Shown: positions 27,090 to 30,910 of the stretch, in pieces
How the letters are laid out: each line of letters begins with the position of its first letter
Numbering within the stretch: the first letter of the stretch is position 1
Source: a virus
Length of the DNA stretch: 39,236 nt
IMG/VR virus record: IMGVR_UViG_3300028453_000006
Direction: 5' to 3' (one strand)
Translations under genes and position numbers: made by a program
Notes under the pieces: model-generated
Told to the model about the DNA's origin: nothing
The model's input: only the letters and a program-made list of their open reading frames with translations
Databases searched by the model: none

Positions 27090-27830
27090 ATGGGATTGTT
27101 TAGCCTTTTATTTGGTAAAAAAAGAACAAATATACAGCCAAAAACTTCTATGACATTTTCATCTTCTGATGAATTTGACTACTACACCCCAGAATATTTC
27201 AAAATATTAGATACAAAACCTAATATATTTGAAATTTACGGTAGACCTCACAATTTTCCAAAGTATGACGATAGTTTTATCACTAACGAGAACTACAAAT
27301 TGAGAGAGCTTTTACTATTAGTGTGGTGGGGAAATCCAAAGAATGGTCGAAAATCTACTGTAACTATTCCTAAATACTTTTTTTATAGTTACAATTTAAA
27401 TGCTGAGAAATTGACTAATGATTTTAAATCCAACGGTCTTCTAGTAGATATAGAAGAAAAAACGCTATTAACAGAAAAAGGTCGAACAGTTTACGATAAA
27501 TACAAAGCTTTATGGGAAATCCATGTTGTAAAACAGTATCCAACTAATCTTGATATCGATTTTCCGTCATGGGACAAAGAACAATTTGAGTTAAAATTGT
27601 ATCAAATGGAACTAACATACTATAAAGCTCACGCAAATCATTGTAAAAAGTTGGTAGACTTTTTCAACTCTCTCAACATACCTTCTACTTCTACTGCTAC
27701 TGCTCAAGATGTACATGATCAAATCAACTACTACATAAACGAAGGTAACAGCGACCTCGCAAAAGTTAATGACTATCAAGAAAAAATAGCTATTCTAAAA
27801 GAAAAAGCCGCCCATAGGTTAAGTGACTAA
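27090..27830 (+). CDS. Hypothetical protein (246 aa) coupled to the repressor gene
   Basis: ORF track. Starts 4 nt after the cI stop. No family recognised. Confidence 0.7.
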   Translation: MGLFSLLFGKKRTNIQPKTSMTFSSSDEFDYYTPEYFKILDTKPNIFEIYGRPHNFPKYDDSFITNENYKLRELLLLVWWGNPKNGRKSTVTIPKYFFYSYNLNAEKLTNDFKSNGLLVDIEEKTLLTEKGRTVYDKYKALWEIHVVKQYPTNLDIDFPSWDKEQFELKLYQMELTYYKAHANHCKKLVDFFNSLNIPSTSTATAQDVHDQINYYINEGNSDLAKVNDYQEKIAILKEKAAHRLSD

Positions 27831-27885
27831 AAACAACGTGCAAAGGACTGAACCACGTTAAAAGCTGGAAATGGAGAAAAATACA

Positions 27886-28293
27886 ATGAAGAAGAAAACT
27901 GCTATTATCATTGCTACAGCTTTCTTGTTTGTCGCTAGTCCTGCTATTGAGACAGCTGTTTTTCCTCAAGCTCATACAGCTTACGCCGTATCAAAAGAGT
28001 ATAAAAACGCTCTTGAAACAGCTGAGTTGATGAAAGACGCAAACATGTCTAAAAAAGCTTTCTATCAAGCATTACAAGATGAAAGCGGCTTTGAGAAAAA
28101 AGCGGTAGATTATGCTGTTAAAAAACTGAAAATCAGTTGGAAAAAGAATGCTTTAGCATCTGCTAAAAACTTTCAAGACTATGGCATGTCTAAAGAGAAA
28201 ATCAAAGAAACATTGCTTAGCGAAGAGGATGGCGGAGGTTTTACAAAATCAGAAGTCAACTACGCTATTAAACATTTAGAAGACGAAGATTAA
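27886..28293 (+). CDS. Ltp-like superinfection exclusion protein (two Ltp repeats), with a signal peptide but no lipobox Cys
   Basis: ATG at 27886 after GGAG (the track start at 27871 is the alternative). Repeats YKNALETAELMKDANMSKKAFYQALQDESGFEKKAVDYAVKKL and KKNALASAKNFQDYGMSKEKIKETLLSEEDGGGFTKSEVNYAIKHL. Confidence 0.75.
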   Translation: MKKKTAIIIATAFLFVASPAIETAVFPQAHTAYAVSKEYKNALETAELMKDANMSKKAFYQALQDESGFEKKAVDYAVKKLKISWKKNALASAKNFQDYGMSKEKIKETLLSEEDGGGFTKSEVNYAIKHLEDED

Positions 28294-28395: not shown

Positions 28396-28426
28396 CCATT
28401 TTAACACAGAAATGAGGTATAAATCA

Positions 28427-29845
28427 ATGCAAACAAAACGAAAAGTAGCTATATATAGCCGTGTCTCTACACTACATCAAGCCGAGGAAGGCTATTCAAT
28501 CGGTCAGCAAATCGAAGCACTGGCGAAGTATTGTCAAGCTATGGATTGGAGTATTTATGACAACTATTCTGACGCTGGTTTCTCTGGTGGAAAACTTGAA
28601 AGACCAGCTATGCAAAAAATGATACAAGACGCTGAATCTGGCAAGTTTGATACTGTAGTCGTATATAAGCTTGACCGTCTTAGCCGAAACGTCAGAGACA
28701 CGCTCTACCTAGTCAAAGACGTTTTTAACGCTAACAACGTTGATTTTGTTAGCTTACAAGAAAATATAGATACTAAATCAGCTATGGGAAATCTCTTTAT
28801 CACACTACTTTCTGCTATCGCTGAATTTGAGCGGGAGCAAATCAAGGAACGTATGCAGCTGGGTGTAAAAGGACGAGCAAAGTCAGGGAAAACAACTTCT
28901 TGGACCACGCCACCCTTTGGCTACGAGTACGACACTAACACCCAATTAATGACCATCAATCACTATCAAGCTGAAATTGTGCGCGATATGTTTGATAAGA
29001 TCATTTCTGGCTGGTCTATCATGGGTATCACAACCCATTTAAGAAAAACCAATAATAAAAAATGGACTCATGTAAGAGTTAAACGCATTTTGGAGAATGT
29101 AGCTTATATTGGTAAAGTGAAATACCGTGATGAAATCTTTGACGGAGAGCACGCGCCTATATTGACGGAAGAAATATTTTATAAGGCTCAAAAAGCTTTA
29201 GAAGAGCGGACAAGTAAGAAAGATAATACTAGACCTTTTCAAGGGCTTTACATGCTTTCGAACATCGCAAAATGTGGATACTGCGGAACGCCTTTGAAAA
29301 TAGATAGCTACAAGCCTCGTAAAGACGGCACTAGAAAACGTACCTACACTTGTATCAACAGAAACCCAAAACGAATAAAGACGGCAACCTACAACGATGG
29401 TAAGCAATGTAAAGAGTCAGGGCGCTACGATGTCAAAGACGTTGAAAAGTATGTCTTAACAGAAATAAGCAAGCTACAGCTAAATCCTAAATCAATAGAA
29501 TCACTGTACAGAGATAAGCCCGAAGAAAATATAGCAGCTCACCAAGAACGATTAAAAAAACTTGAAACTAAGTTATCAAAGCTAAACGACTTGTATATAA
29601 ATGAACTTATTTCTATGGAAGTGTTAAAACAAAAAAGCGCTGAACTTCTCAAAGAGAAATCCAGCTTAGAAACATTTATAAATAACAACAAAAGAAAGAC
29701 AAATAACAAACCAGCTTTTGAGAAACTTGCTAAAATGGACGATATTTTTAAAATGTCCTACGACGACCAAAAGAGAATTGTTAAAACATTAATTAAACGT
29801 GTAGAAGTTAAACGTGATGAAATCAACGTTATTTTTAAATTGTAA
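28427..29845 (+). CDS. int: Large serine recombinase (phage integrase)
   Basis: MQTKRKVAIYSRVSTLHQ... (catalytic Ser), VVVYKLDRLSRN, a recombinase domain, the zinc ribbon CGYCGTPL...YTCINR and a C-terminal coiled coil. The ATG at 28427 is preferred over the one at 28412. Confidence 0.9.
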   Translation: MQTKRKVAIYSRVSTLHQAEEGYSIGQQIEALAKYCQAMDWSIYDNYSDAGFSGGKLERPAMQKMIQDAESGKFDTVVVYKLDRLSRNVRDTLYLVKDVFNANNVDFVSLQENIDTKSAMGNLFITLLSAIAEFEREQIKERMQLGVKGRAKSGKTTSWTTPPFGYEYDTNTQLMTINHYQAEIVRDMFDKIISGWSIMGITTHLRKTNNKKWTHVRVKRILENVAYIGKVKYRDEIFDGEHAPILTEEIFYKAQKALEERTSKKDNTRPFQGLYMLSNIAKCGYCGTPLKIDSYKPRKDGTRKRTYTCINRNPKRIKTATYNDGKQCKESGRYDVKDVEKYVLTEISKLQLNPKSIESLYRDKPEENIAAHQERLKKLETKLSKLNDLYINELISMEVLKQKSAELLKEKSSLETFINNNKRKTNNKPAFEKLAKMDDIFKMSYDDQKRIVKTLIKRVEVKRDEINVIFKL

Positions 29846-29969
29846 AATTACAGTATTTAGGAGCACCTACTAGTATAGTTGTGCATGAATCAGAACTTTT
29901 TACCATGTATGTTTTCTCCCTTGTTTGTTATGATATTATTATATCAAATAACCCGACAAAAGTAACAAA

Positions 29970-29999
29970 GACGGTCTAACCAGACCGCCTTTTGTTTTT
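29970..29999 (+). terminator. Terminator shared by int (plus) and, more weakly, the convergent HTH operon (minus)
   Basis: CGGTCT-AACC-AGACCG, followed by CCTTTTGTTTTT on the plus strand and UCUUUGUUACUUUUGU on the minus strand. Confidence 0.65.
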
Positions 30000-30036
30000 A
30001 TTACAAGCCAAATCGTTTTTTAAGTTCCATATTTTT

Positions 30037-30423
30037 CTATTCAAAAGTTACGTCGCCGTTATCAACAGAACCGATATATTGCATTTTGCGTTCACGTTCA
30101 TCGGCTGGTGCCATTCCACGAGCTTCAATGCTGATATTTCCGTCTTTATCTTCCCAGATATCAAGCATATCTGCTTCAAGTTCCATATCTTTGATAATAT
30201 CCAAAATTTCTTGTTCAGTGTGTTTCATTGTTTCTACCTCGTTTTCTTTTGCGTATTGTGTTAGCTTGATAGCGTTGTTATATGACATGTTTCCGACATC
30301 GGTCCTACCTTTAACGTAGTTTGATAAAGTCTGTTCAGATATTCCTGTTACTTTAGAAATCTGATAACGTGAATTATTTGTTAATAAGTTTAAAATTTCT
30401 TGTTTTGATAATACTTCAATCAT
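30037..30423 (-). CDS. HTH protein (128 aa): AcrIIA1-NTD-like/Aca-like XRE HTH fused to an unrecognised acidic C-terminal domain
   Basis: ORF track. RBS AAGGAG. The HTH SRYQISKVTGISEQTLSNYV resembles AcrIIA1 TRYQLSKLTGISQNTLKDQ (recalled). The C-terminal ~69 aa have 21 D/E. Confidence 0.7.
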   Translation of the reverse strand: MIEVLSKQEILNLLTNNSRYQISKVTGISEQTLSNYVKGRTDVGNMSYNNAIKLTQYAKENEVETMKHTEQEILDIIKDMELEADMLDIWEDKDGNISIEARGMAPADERERKMQYIGSVDNGDVTFE

Positions 30424-30432
30424 GTTTGCTCC

Positions 30433-30534
30433 TTATTTAAGCAAGAGCCAAGCGATTAGCCCGATAACGACCAACCAGCCTAGAAATGCTTTCCAATCAA
30501 AAGAATGTTTTGTTACTTTAAATTTTACTTTCAT
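30433..30534 (-). CDS. 33-codon hydrophobic sORF (MKVKFKVTKHSFDWKAFLGWLVVIGLIAWLLLK)
   Basis: My own translation. Its stop lies 9 nt before the HTH ATG. No convincing SD, so translation is uncertain. Confidence 0.3.
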   Translation of the reverse strand: MKVKFKVTKHSFDWKAFLGWLVVIGLIAWLLLK

Positions 30535-30547
30535 AGCATTTTTTGTT

Positions 30548-30695
30548 AATATTTAAGTACACCCCCGAGGGGGTGGATAGTGAAAATCACTATCCGATTT
30601 CGATGTGCCATTCAAGCGTTATGACTAACAAGTTGATTTTGATGACCACTTTGTTCGTTTTAACTTTGAATGGCTTTTTTAAGTACTTAAACATT
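30548..30695. ncRNA. Structured RNA element (closing 13-bp stem plus three hairpins); possibly a leader structure on the minus strand and/or a ~120-nt plus-strand antisense sRNA
   Basis: Inverted repeats 30548-30560 and 30683-30695. Hairpins at 30560-30575, 30575-30595 and 30607-30674. T6 at 30675-30680. Plus-strand promoter-like TTTACT-17-TGtTAATAT at 30524-30552. Confidence 0.45.
30590..30694 (-). CDS. 34-codon sORF (MFKYLKKPFKVKTNKVVIKINLLVITLEWHIEIG) embedded in the structured element
   Basis: My own translation, with AAAGGA 7 nt upstream. The coding sequence coincides with a long hairpin, so it may not be translated. Confidence 0.25.
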   Translation of the reverse strand: MFKYLKKPFKVKTNKVVIKINLLVITLEWHIEIG

Positions 30696-30763
30696 TGTTT
30701 TTCCTTTCTGTAGTTTCCTTGTCTAAGGTTTTGTTTTTTTACCTCCCTCAACCTTACATATAT

Positions 30764-30792
30764 ATTATACCATTATATATAATAGTAGTCAA
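30764..30792 (-). promoter_or_regulatory. Near-consensus sigma-70-type promoter TTGACT-17-TGgTATAAT with the palindrome ATTATATATAAT in the spacer
   Basis: -35 at 30792-30787, -10 at 30769-30764, extended TG at 30772-30771, palindrome at 30772-30783. Confidence 0.7.
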
Positions 30793-30834
30793 CACTTTTT
30801 ATAAACTTTTTTGATATTTTTTAAAATTTTTTTG

Positions 30835-30857
30835 GTCCGTTAAAACGGACTTTTTTT
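30835..30857 (+). terminator. Plus-direction terminator hairpin shielding the lysin gene from antisense transcription
   Basis: GTCCGT-TAAA-ACGGAC followed by T7. Confidence 0.5.
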
Positions 30858-30880: not shown

Positions 30881-30910
30881 AAAAAAAGCCCCTAGCTTTT
30901 TAGCTAGGGG
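30881..30910 (-). terminator. Rho-independent terminator of the late/lysis operon
   Basis: Minus-strand RNA CCCCUAGC-UAAAAA-GCUAGGGG followed by CU7. Confidence 0.85.

What the first reader, a model, noticed from the sequence alone, without database searches (positions are those of the whole stretch)
30037..30800. Autonomous operon between lysin and integrase: candidate anti-CRISPR/anti-defence (acr-aca-like) locus with an unrecognised acidic domain
Sequence: the lysis operon ends at a strong terminator (30881-30910). About 90 bp further on lies a near-consensus minus-strand promoter, TTGACT-17-TGgTATAAT (30792-30764), with a perfect 12-bp palindrome ATTATATATAAT in its spacer. The transcript would have a ~330-nt leader containing two sORFs and several hairpins. 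It ends with a 128-aa ORF (30423-30037) followed by a terminator. Residues ~15-60 form an XRE-type HTH (NNSRYQISKVTGISEQTLSNYVKG). Residues ~60-128 have 21 D/E against 7 K/R and match no family I recognise. Knowledge (from memory, not searched): the HTH is very close to the N-terminal domain of Listeria AcrIIA1 (..LTRYQLSKLTGISQNTLKDQ..). That domain autorepresses acr promoters through a palindrome. Its homologues, often fused to unrelated C-terminal domains, mark acr loci in Firmicutes prophages. Inference: this is an anti-CRISPR or other anti-defence operon. The inhibitor could be the acidic C-terminal domain, an sORF product, or an RNA from the leader.
Basis: partly seen in the sequence, partly recalled or inferred. 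Interest (0 to 1): 0.85.

Follow-up and report, generated by a model that had tools for sequence, protein, structure and literature searches.

The report
Self-repressing anti-CRISPR fusion gene operon
The 128-aa gene between the phage's lysin and integrase joins an Aca11-type DNA-binding repressor to a domain of the known Cas9 inhibitor family AcrIIA31, so it is a new member of a known kind; the supposed "leader" in front of it encodes two conserved tiny proteins of unknown function.

Summary

The acr-aca reading is right in substance, but the parts belong to known families.
- **N-terminal domain (residues 1-62):** closest to Aca11 and to the AcrIIA15 N-terminal domain, not to AcrIIA1.
- **Acidic domain (residues 66-128):** homologous to AcrIIA31, a published inhibitor that stops St1Cas9 binding DNA (55% identity over the 40-aa core). 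AcrIIA31 orthologues fused to Aca proteins have already been reported.
- **Promoter:** its flanks resemble the experimentally validated acrIIA25.1-aca11 promoter. Only the inverted repeat in the spacer differs.
- **Operator evidence:** across related prophages the repeat changes whenever the HTH type changes. This argues that the repeat is the operator for autorepression.

The "330-nt leader" is not a leader. It holds two small genes (34 aa and 33 aa) under purifying selection, separated by conserved hairpins. This sORF-hairpin-sORF-regulator unit recurs in streptococcal prophages that carry no Acr at that position. That unit is the unexplained and possibly new part.

The window phage has also lost an acrIIA24-like gene that follows the fusion in a relative.

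Verdict: new member of a known kind, moderate interest. No activity was tested.

The parts
30881..30910 (-). Intrinsic terminator of the lysis operon, which sets the upstream boundary of the unit
   Evidence: 9-bp GC-rich stem followed by a T-run; coordinates checked.
30835..30850 (.). Conserved hairpin GTCCGTTTTAACGGAC between the lysin terminator and the promoter. On the + strand it reads as a terminator (hairpin followed by T7).
   Evidence: It is conserved in all S. equinus-type loci. Its function was not studied.
30793..30813 (-). A-rich element upstream of the -35 (CAAAAAAGTTTATAAAAAGTG). It is conserved across streptococcal acr promoters.
   Evidence: Alignment A6 with the validated acrIIA25.1-aca11 promoter and seven related loci.
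30764..30792 (-). Sigma-70-type promoter: TTGACT, 17-nt spacer, TGgTATAAT
   Evidence: 11 of 12 consensus positions with an extended -10. Same geometry as the Aca11-regulated promoter (PMC12658196).
30768..30787 (.). 20-bp inverted repeat TACTATTATATATAATGGTA, the candidate operator of the HTH domain
   Evidence: Unique in the window, with 0 expected by chance. It fills the spacer as the Aca11 inverted repeat does. The repeat sequence changes together with the HTH type across loci.
30590..30694 (-). sORF-A, 34 aa (MFKYLKKPFKVKTNKVVIKINLLVITLEWHIEIG), preceded by an AAGGA Shine-Dalgarno sequence
   Evidence: Conserved in S. equinus, S. suis and S. gordonii phages. pN/pS 0.07-0.35 with an excess of third-position changes. 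No family hit.
30560..30595 (-). Two adjacent hairpins at the stop codon of sORF-A (GGATAGTGAttttCACTATCC and CACCCCCtcGGGGGTG)
   Evidence: Minimum free energy -22 kcal/mol. Hairpins are kept in homologous loci with some compensatory changes, 4 of 14 pairs among 6 sequences. No Rfam match.
30433..30534 (-). sORF-B, 33 aa, a single-pass hydrophobic peptide (MKVKFKVTKHSFDWKAFLGWLVVIGLIAWLLLK)
   Evidence: Conserved. pN/pS 0.04-0.5. No family hit.
30238..30423 (-). Residues 1-62 of the 128-aa ORF: Aca11-type HTH domain
   Evidence: PDB profile search: Aca11 E 2.4e-11, AcrIIA15 N-terminal domain 1.3e-9. The AF2 model (pLDDT 81-89 in this part) superposes on Aca11 at 1.4 A over 61 residues.
30040..30228 (-). 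Residues 66-128: acidic AcrIIA31-family domain (pI 4.2). It starts at an internal Met with GAGG 9 nt upstream.
   Evidence: BLASTP against AcrIIA31 and AcrIIA31.1. Stand-alone homologues of 59-69 aa reach 92% identity. The AF2 model has pLDDT 83.6. Charge counts.
29967..29992 (-). Terminator of the operon; it also reads as a terminator on the + strand
   Evidence: The same terminator follows the acrIIA24-like gene in the S. equinus NM-7 prophage.

Best explanation
The locus is a self-limiting anti-CRISPR operon of a Streptococcus equinus/lutetiensis-type temperate phage. It lies at the prophage end, between the lysin gene and attP/integrase. None of the steps below was tested experimentally here.

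**Transcription.** A strong promoter (30792-30764, minus strand) drives three genes: sORF-A, sORF-B and a 128-aa fusion protein. This is inferred from the sequence and from a homologous promoter that has been validated experimentally.

**Inhibition.** The C-terminal domain of the fusion (residues 66-128) belongs to the AcrIIA31 family. By homology, it most likely binds a guide-loaded type II-A Cas9 of the St1Cas9 kind and prevents it from engaging target DNA.

**Autorepression.** The N-terminal domain (residues 1-62) is an Aca11-type HTH. It most likely dimerises on the 20-bp inverted repeat that fills the promoter spacer. That would shut the operon off after the initial burst and keep it low in lysogens. 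This is inferred from Aca11 and AcrIIA15 and supported here by HTH/operator covariation.

**Origin of the fusion.** It arose by joining an aca gene to a downstream stand-alone acrIIA31 gene. The old start codon (M66) and a GAGG upstream of it survive, so a separate 63-aa Acr product is possible; this is speculative.

**The small genes.** sORF-A and sORF-B are co-transcribed cargo of unknown function.
For: **C-terminal domain**
- 55% identity over the 40-residue core of AcrIIA31 (E 3e-12), and 36% identity over 104 residues of the Aca13::AcrIIA31.1 fusion (E 2e-15).
- The family motif D-x-W-x-D-K-D-G...R-G-M-x-P-x-D...G-x-V-D-N-G is conserved in alignment A1.
- pI matches the family: 4.22 here, 4.12 for AcrIIA31.
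- A search of 1.84 billion representative proteins returns only 13 hits. Twelve are 58-123 aa, stand-alone or fused, including an AcrIIA31-like 67-mer.
- AcrIIA31 and AcrIIA31.1 inhibit St1Cas9 by blocking DNA binding (PMC8934645).

**N-terminal domain**
- Aca11 (9lx2) and the AcrIIA15 N-terminal domain are the top hits by sequence and by structure.

**Promoter**
- The flanks align with the validated acrIIA25.1-aca11 promoter; only the inverted repeat differs.

**Covariation of HTH and operator**
- Phage PH15 carries the HTH closest to Aca11 and the Aca11 repeat TATATAACAAATGTTATATA.
- Four other HTH-type regulators (two of them variants of the window's own type), plus the non-HTH Aca13-type regulator of phage LF1, each sit behind a different palindrome at the same position.
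- The two variants are ...YVKGRTD... with TACTATTATATATAAT(G/A)GTA and ...YANGVTD... with TACTACTATAAATAGTAGTA.

**Context**
- Relatives carry an AcrIIA24 homologue (57% identity, E 2e-40) or an AP2-domain gene resembling Song's orf2 directly downstream.
- S. suis Javan597 has the HTH and the AcrIIA31 homologue as separate genes.
Against: - Nothing was tested experimentally: no Cas9 inhibition, no DNA binding, no transcript mapping.
- Identity to the tested AcrIIA31 proteins is moderate, and the window protein has a 4-residue insertion (ERER) in a loop. Target specificity could therefore differ.
- Two DNA-contact residues that matter in Aca11 (Q28, R39) align with E30 and T41 here. Operator recognition is therefore not the Aca11 one and rests on covariation only.
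- I could not establish which Cas9 types the host carries. The literature says only that S. equinus has II-A, 'II-C' and III-A systems.
- In the full-length AF2 model the C-terminal domain had low confidence (pLDDT 40-56). It folds confidently only when modelled alone.
Confidence: 0.8

Rival explanations
1. The conserved functional unit is promoter/operator, sORF-A, hairpin, sORF-B and regulator. On this view the regulator's primary job is to control the two tiny proteins. These could act in superinfection exclusion, as a non-CRISPR anti-defence, as a toxin-like membrane peptide pair, or as a peptide signal. The AcrIIA31 domain would then be an optional passenger added at the 3' end. This complements rather than excludes the best explanation.
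For: - The same unit ends with a bare regulator, with no Acr in the operon, in four phages. These are S. pyogenes Javan471, S. suis Bonnie, S. anginosus Javan73 and S. agalactiae LF1; LF1 uses an Aca13-type regulator.
- The two sORFs swap as a pair. Loci L007 and L008 share promoter and HTH but carry different sORF pairs.
- Both sORFs are under purifying selection.
- The second type of sORF-A matches phrog_3399, a phage family of unknown function.
Against: - No function is known or predictable for the sORFs. Pfam, NCBIfam and PADLOC give nothing, and PHROGs gives nothing for the window's own sORFs.
- Some records are cut at the prophage end, so a downstream Acr may be missing from them.
- sORF-B lacks a clear Shine-Dalgarno sequence in most loci.
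- The Acr homology of the fusion protein stands regardless.
Confidence: 0.35
2. The protein is an ordinary phage transcription regulator, and its C-terminal domain no longer inhibits Cas9. The domain might instead serve oligomerisation or sensing. The operon would then not be an anti-CRISPR locus in this phage.
For: - The window phage has already lost the neighbouring acrIIA24-like gene by deletion, which shows that the locus is decaying or being remodelled.
- Identity to the tested AcrIIA31 proteins is only 36-55%.
Against: - The C-terminal domain is strongly conserved, with 19 invariant columns among 15 fused and stand-alone homologues.
- It exists as a free-standing 59-69-aa gene in acr positions.
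- Song et al. suggest, from AcrIIA32 and its unfused orthologue AcrIIA32.1 having similar activity, that an Aca fusion does not obviously impair an Acr (PMC8934645).
Confidence: 0.08
3. The inhibitor is an RNA from the hairpin region (an RNA anti-CRISPR or decoy) or one of the sORF peptides acting on Cas9, rather than the acidic domain.
For: - Hairpins are conserved between the two sORFs, with some compensatory changes.
- The sORFs occupy the position upstream of aca where acr genes usually sit (PMC12282945).
Against: - No Rfam family matches.
- By eye, the hairpins do not resemble the type II repeat or tracrRNA sequences as I recall them. No comparison against actual host CRISPR arrays or tracrRNAs was run.
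- The second type of sORF-A, and sORF-B in both types, have a hydrophobic segment typical of membrane peptides. That would be unusual for an inhibitor of a cytoplasmic Cas9.
- A bona fide Acr-family domain is present in the same operon.
Confidence: 0.05

Closest known systems
AcrIIA31 and AcrIIA31.1 (Song et al. 2022, NAR; WP_033585134.1, WP_155213713.1)
   Same: - The C-terminal domain is homologous, with the core motif DxWxDKDGxxxIExRGMxPxD...GxVDNG.
- It has the same size and the same acidity (pI about 4.2).
- It sits in streptococcal prophage acr loci.
- AcrIIA31.1 is likewise an N-terminal Aca fused to a C-terminal AcrIIA31 domain.
   Different: - The fusion partner here is an Aca11-type HTH, not Aca13.
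- Identity is 36-55%.
- There is a 4-residue insertion after the RGMxPxD motif.
- Activity and Cas9 specificity are untested.
Aca11 (WP_009730540.1; PDB 9LX2)
   Same: - The fold is the same (1.4 A over 61 residues) and the sequence is 35% identical.
- The promoter architecture is the same, with an inverted repeat filling the 17-nt spacer and homologous promoter flanks.
   Different: - Aca11 is a free 63-aa protein; here the domain is fused.
- The operator differs: a 20-bp TACTATTATATATAATGGTA instead of the 24-bp AGTATATAACAAATGTTATATACT.
- Contact residues Q28 and R39 are not conserved.
AcrIIA15 (Staphylococcus; PDB 8JFO, 8JFR, 8JFU)
   Same: - The N-to-C architecture is the same: an HTH autorepressor domain that dimerises on a promoter palindrome, followed by an acidic C-terminal inhibitor domain that blocks Cas9 from engaging DNA.
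- Its N-terminal domain is the second-best sequence and structure match.
   Different: - The C-terminal domains are unrelated.
- AcrIIA15 targets SaCas9 by mimicking PAM-side DNA. The contact surface of AcrIIA31 is unknown.
   Same: - It is a bifunctional HTH-plus-inhibitor protein that represses acr promoters.
- An 18-residue stretch of the HTH is 61% identical.
   Different: - It is not retrieved by sequence or profile search.
- The C-terminal domains are unrelated.
- AcrIIA1 is not the closest relative.

Membership tests
AcrIIA31 family | Significant sequence similarity to the tested proteins AcrIIA31 and AcrIIA31.1, including the conserved core motif | tested here: met
   BLASTP E 3e-12 (55% identity over 40 aa) and 2e-15 (36% over 104 aa). 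Motif columns are nearly invariant in A1.
AcrIIA31 family | Small acidic protein or domain encoded in an acr locus next to, or fused with, an aca gene | tested here: met
   63 residues, pI 4.22. Fused to an Aca11-type HTH. Relatives have an AcrIIA24 homologue next door.
AcrIIA31 family | Inhibits St1Cas9 by preventing the Cas9-guide RNA complex from binding target DNA | not testable with these tools
   Known for AcrIIA31 and AcrIIA31.1 only (PMC8934645).
Aca11 family | HTH domain of about 60 aa with the Aca11 sequence and fold | tested here: met
   Profile search against PDB E 2.4e-11. Foldseek top hit 9lx2, rmsd 1.4 A, target-normalised TM-score about 0.8.
Aca11 family | Conservation of the DNA-contact residues Y18, K22, Q28, S32, K38, R39 | tested here: not met
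   Read from the alignment. Y20, K24 and S34 are conserved and K38 aligns with R40. Q28 aligns with E30 and R39 with T41. This is consistent with a different operator, so the domain is best called Aca11-like rather than an Aca11 orthologue.
Aca11 family | Inverted repeat between the -35 and -10 of its own promoter | tested here: met
   A 20-bp repeat fills the 17-nt spacer. The promoter flanks are homologous to the acrIIA25.1-aca11 promoter.
Aca11 family | Binds the inverted repeat as a dimer and represses transcription | not testable with these tools
   Support is indirect only: the HTH type and the repeat sequence covary across loci.
   AcrIIA1 (5y6a) is absent from phmmer and profile hits at E <= 10. 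Pairwise BLASTP aligns 18 residues at 61% identity, E 6e-6.
Bifunctional Aca-Acr fusion proteins (AcrIIA1, AcrIIA13-15, AcrIIA29, AcrIIA31.1, AcrIIA32) | One polypeptide with a DNA-binding autorepressor domain and a separate inhibitor domain, encoded behind a promoter that carries the cognate palindrome | tested here: met
   Two-domain model. Both domains are found separately elsewhere. Palindrome in the promoter.

The most novel reading that the evidence does not exclude
The part not described in the literature I searched is the unit in front of the fusion gene: an Aca-repressed promoter driving two micro-proteins separated by a conserved hairpin. sORF-A is 34-51 aa and sORF-B is a 21-33-aa hydrophobic peptide. 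In several prophages of S. pyogenes, S. agalactiae, S. suis and S. anginosus this unit, with either an Aca11-like or an Aca13-type regulator, is the whole operon. The micro-proteins would then be the real conserved cargo: a new class of early-expressed, Aca-controlled membrane effectors. Possible roles are anti-defence, superinfection exclusion or peptide signalling. Acr genes would be optional add-ons.
Probability: 0.3. Interest if true: 0.65.

Novelty: new member of a known kind. Interest (0 to 1): 0.38.

Why it matters
**For the fusion gene.** It adds an Aca11-like::AcrIIA31 combination to the known set of self-regulating anti-CRISPRs. It also provides a natural series of HTH/operator pairs that could serve as orthogonal repressor-operator parts. 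These include a two-variant pair that differs in the region aligned with Aca11's KKR motif and in position 6 of the half-site. In addition, it suggests that phages of the S. equinus group face St1Cas9-type immunity.

**For the field.** Guilt-by-association screens around Aca11 and Aca13 have looked at annotated genes. The small-gene pair upstream of aca is mostly unannotated in the records I inspected and may be an overlooked functional module at the toxin/paratox end of streptococcal prophages.

Tried and rejected
**Family scans**
- For the 128-aa protein, Pfam, NCBIfam and PADLOC gave only sub-threshold HTH hits or nothing.
- Its best PHROGs hit is phrog_1529, of unknown function.
- Neither of the window's two sORFs hit any library.

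**Similarities tested and dropped**
- The acidic tail of Aca12 looked similar by eye, but BLASTP gives E = 20.
- AcrIIA1 as closest relative: not supported.

**RNA families**
- Rfam found nothing at the locus or anywhere in the window.

**Structure**
- The first full-length AF2 model had an unreliable C-terminal domain.
- The domain modelled alone is confident. It has no fold match in PDB, and its only matches in BFVD are its own homologues. The fold therefore says nothing about mechanism.

**Searches that failed or were uninformative**
- The search for related loci with the mixed alignment A1 failed because no conserved stretch was found.
- The 43-aa sORF query was too short for that tool.
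- tblastn with the window-type sORF-A found nothing in the phage collection, probably because of low-complexity filtering and query length.

**Readings rejected or left open**
- The hairpins are not canonical intrinsic terminators, since no U-tract follows them.
- An internal promoter inside sORF-B (TTAACA, 16 nt, TAAAAT) is not conserved in phage PH15. I did not adopt it.

**Literature**
- A search for paratox together with anti-CRISPR found no description of the sORF unit.
Full report
**Observation.** On the minus strand, the lysin gene (31808-30945; Amidase_5 plus ZoocinA_TRD) ends at a strong terminator (30910-30881). About 90 bp further on lies the best promoter match of the region: TTGACT, a 17-nt spacer, then TATAAT preceded by TG (30792-30764; 11 of 12 consensus positions). 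The spacer contains the perfect 12-bp palindrome ATTATATATAAT. This sits within a 20-bp near-palindrome, TACTATTATA|TATAATGGTA (30787-30768), which is unique in the window with none expected by chance. The 128-aa ORF (30423-30037) has a strong AAGGAG ribosome-binding site. Residues 60-128 contain 21 D/E and 7 K/R, and the ORF is followed by a terminator (29992-29967).

**Context.** The window is a temperate phage of the S. equinus/lutetiensis group, resembling Javan210 and Javan284. The lysogeny genes run on the opposite strand: a serine integrase at 28412-29845, an Ltp-like lipoprotein, and a CI-type repressor. The match to the Javan210 prophage stops exactly at the end of the integrase gene. 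attP should therefore lie between 29846 and about 29966, and the operon sits at the prophage end.

**The N-terminal domain.**
- A sequence search of the PDB gives Aca11 (9lx2, E 1.8e-5) and AcrIIA15 (8jfr, 8jfo) as the only significant hits.
- A profile built from 11 homologues raises these to 2.4e-11 and 1.3e-9.
- The AF2 model is confident for residues 1-60 (pLDDT 81-89). Its best structural matches are again Aca11 (rmsd 1.4 A over 61 residues) and the AcrIIA15 N-terminal domain.
I confirmed my recalled AcrIIA1 sequence against 5y6a; pairwise BLASTP then aligns only 18 residues of the HTH.
- Aca11 is an experimentally characterised repressor. It binds a 24-bp inverted repeat lying between the -35 and -10 of two acr promoters (PMC12282945; PMC12658196).

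**The acidic domain.** It is not an unknown family.
- Table S1 of Song et al. 2022 lists AcrIIA31 (69 aa) and AcrIIA31.1 (125 aa, an Aca13::AcrIIA31 fusion).
- BLASTP of the window protein gives 55% identity over the 40-residue core of AcrIIA31 (E 3e-12). Against AcrIIA31.1 it gives 36% over 104 residues (E 2e-15).
- The alignment shows the shared motif ADMLDxWxDKDGxxxIExRGMxPxD...YxGxVDNG. Size and pI are the same.
- AcrIIA31 and AcrIIA31.1 inhibit St1Cas9, and AcrIIA31 blocks binding of the Cas9-guide RNA complex to DNA. The same paper notes that orthologues of AcrIIA24, 29, 31 and 32 occur fused to Aca proteins.
- The family is small. It comprises 13 clusters at 50% identity among 1.84 billion representative proteins. 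Twelve are short stand-alone or fused proteins of 58-123 aa, and one is a 1112-aa repeat protein.
- Modelled alone, the domain folds confidently (pLDDT 83.6; helix, two strands, short helix, two strands). It has no structural match in the PDB, and in BFVD it matches only its own homologues from PH15 and Javan597.

**Evolution of the fusion.**
- The AcrIIA31-like domain is found fused to at least four different HTH N-terminal domains. One of these is the type closest to Aca11, in S. gordonii phage PH15.
- The window-type HTH also occurs alone (63-70 aa), and once with a different C-terminal domain.
- In S. suis Javan597, the HTH (67 aa), a 61-aa ORF and a stand-alone AcrIIA31 homologue (59 aa, MKHTEKEIL...) are separate genes.
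- The window protein keeps that start as M66-KHTEQEIL, with GAGG 9 nt upstream. Stand-alone versions up to 92% identical exist in the same lysin-integrase gap.
- The fusion is therefore a recent joining of aca and acr. A separate product starting at M66 is possible but unproven.

**Promoter and operator.**
- The region from the A-rich upstream element through the -35, and the -10 with the TGTAAG that follows it, align with the validated acrIIA25.1-aca11 promoter of Streptococcus sp. F0441. Only the spacer differs.
- Across homologous loci the spacer palindrome changes with the regulator:

| Regulator | Spacer palindrome |
|---|---|
| PH15, Aca11-closest HTH | TTATATAACAAATGTTATATAA (the Aca11 repeat) |
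| Window and Javan597, ...NYVKGRTD... | TACTATTATATATAAT(G/A)GTA |
| Sister variant, ...NYANGVTD... | TACTACTATAAATAGTAGTA |
| MSKADFNKIQ-type HTH | AACGCAGTGTAATGCGGT |
| MRKQIE-type HTH | TCACGGTGTACCGTGA |
| S. agalactiae LF1, Aca13-type regulator | TAGTACATGTACTA |

- This covariation is the best evidence available here that the N-terminal domain binds the palindrome.
- Consistent with a new specificity, Aca11's key contacts Q28 and R39 correspond to E30 and T41 in the window protein.

**The 'leader'.** It contains two genes.
- sORF-A (30694-30590, 34 aa) and sORF-B (30534-30433, 33 aa, one hydrophobic helix) are conserved in S. equinus, S. suis and S. gordonii phages.
- Pairwise pN/pS is 0.04-0.5, with a clear excess of third-position changes.
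- Other loci carry a second pair type. Its sORF-A is 43-51 aa with a glycine-rich transmembrane segment and a basic tail (phrog_3399, unknown function); its sORF-B is 21-23 aa. The two genes always swap together.
- Between the two genes there are always GC-rich hairpins. The window type has two adjacent hairpins. The other type has one long hairpin capped by a GNRA loop in most of the loci (four of the six). Some compensatory changes are seen, but only six sequences were available per type.
- No U-tract follows the hairpins and no Rfam family matches.
- The unit of promoter, sORF-A, hairpin, sORF-B and regulator occurs without any Acr in the operon in S. pyogenes Javan471, S. suis Bonnie, S. 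anginosus Javan73 and S. agalactiae LF1. In two of these it lies next to paratox.
- The function of the small genes is unknown. This is the one part I could not assign to anything described.

**A lost neighbour.** In the S. equinus NM-7 prophage and several viral contigs, the fusion gene is followed by an AcrIIA24 homologue (57% identity, E 2e-40). In the window, the sequence just after the fusion's stop codon joins directly to the last 30 nt of that gene and its terminator. About 330 bp carrying the second acr have therefore been deleted.

**Mechanism and confidence.**
- Most likely (0.8): on entry the promoter fires and the AcrIIA31-type domain neutralises a St1Cas9-type effector by blocking DNA binding. 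The Aca11-type domain then dimerises on the 20-bp palindrome and shuts the promoter, as shown for Aca11 and for the architecturally equivalent AcrIIA15 (PMC10901769).
- Shown here: homology of both domains, homology of the promoter, operator/HTH covariation, and coding status of the sORFs.
- Inferred: binding, repression, Cas9 target and timing.

**Novelty.** Both families, and the principle of Aca-Acr fusion, are published. This is a new member: a new partner combination with a new operator. The sORF-hairpin-sORF module is the only element with potential for something new.

Noticed in passing
window 30433-30694 (-); also L002 370-620, L003 1440-1735, L042 1800-2060, L047 1641-1902: A promoter, sORF-A, hairpin, sORF-B and regulator unit is conserved across streptococcal prophages. 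It comes in two interchangeable sORF-pair types, and in several phages no Acr follows it. The sORFs are mostly unannotated in the public records I inspected.
   Followed up: partly
window 29993-30039 compared with L015 3388-3800: The window phage has lost about 330 bp carrying an AcrIIA24 homologue that follows the fusion gene in the S. equinus NM-7 prophage. Only the last 30 nt of that gene (MELKKRFGL*) and the shared terminator remain.
   Followed up: yes
window 30835-30850: A conserved hairpin, GTCCGTTTTAACGGAC, is flanked by A- and T-runs between the lysin terminator and the acr promoter. On the + strand it looks like a terminator that would stop antisense transcription from entering the lysis genes.
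   Followed up: no
L010 (phage PH15) 3462-4028: A full-length ROOL RNA (Rfam RF03087, 349.6 bits) lies directly downstream of the Aca::AcrIIA31 gene of PH15. The window has no ROOL or any other Rfam match.
   Followed up: partly
L001/L010 (PH15) 1480-2511: PH15 has a second operon between lysin and the sORF unit. It uses the same promoter cassette but another palindrome (AGCACGCAATGCGTGCT). By eye, its genes resemble Song's untested-negative candidates orf4 and orf7. It also encodes a 107-aa protein whose C-terminal part looks like an HTH (not checked).
   Followed up: no
protein P0041 (1112 aa, metagenomic): This large protein is made of repeats whose core (DADGTPWVETRGTGSPRD); 10 stretches of it match the AcrIIA31 motif DKDGNISIEARGMAPAD (E 3e-11). 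Its origin and meaning are unknown.
   Followed up: no
protein P0035 (134 aa): A window-type HTH is fused to a different, unrelated C-terminal domain. This is a further candidate Aca-Acr fusion.
   Followed up: no
L004 sORF-A; L013/L014 fusion gene: Single-base changes in A-runs break sORF-A in one metagenomic contig and split the HTH from the AcrIIA31 domain in two others. These may be real variants or assembly errors.
   Followed up: no
window 27090-27830 (+) and 27871-28293 (+): Between the CI-type repressor and the integrase lie a 246-aa protein of unknown function (phrog_19811, E 1e-140) and an Ltp-type superinfection-exclusion lipoprotein (PF07553, phrog_4980).
   Followed up: no
L011 3481-3556; L012 3421-3496: Weak csRNA-like matches (RF02379, 42-46 bits, below the gathering score of 57) lie just downstream of the fusion gene in two viral contigs, possibly at the host junction.
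   Followed up: no
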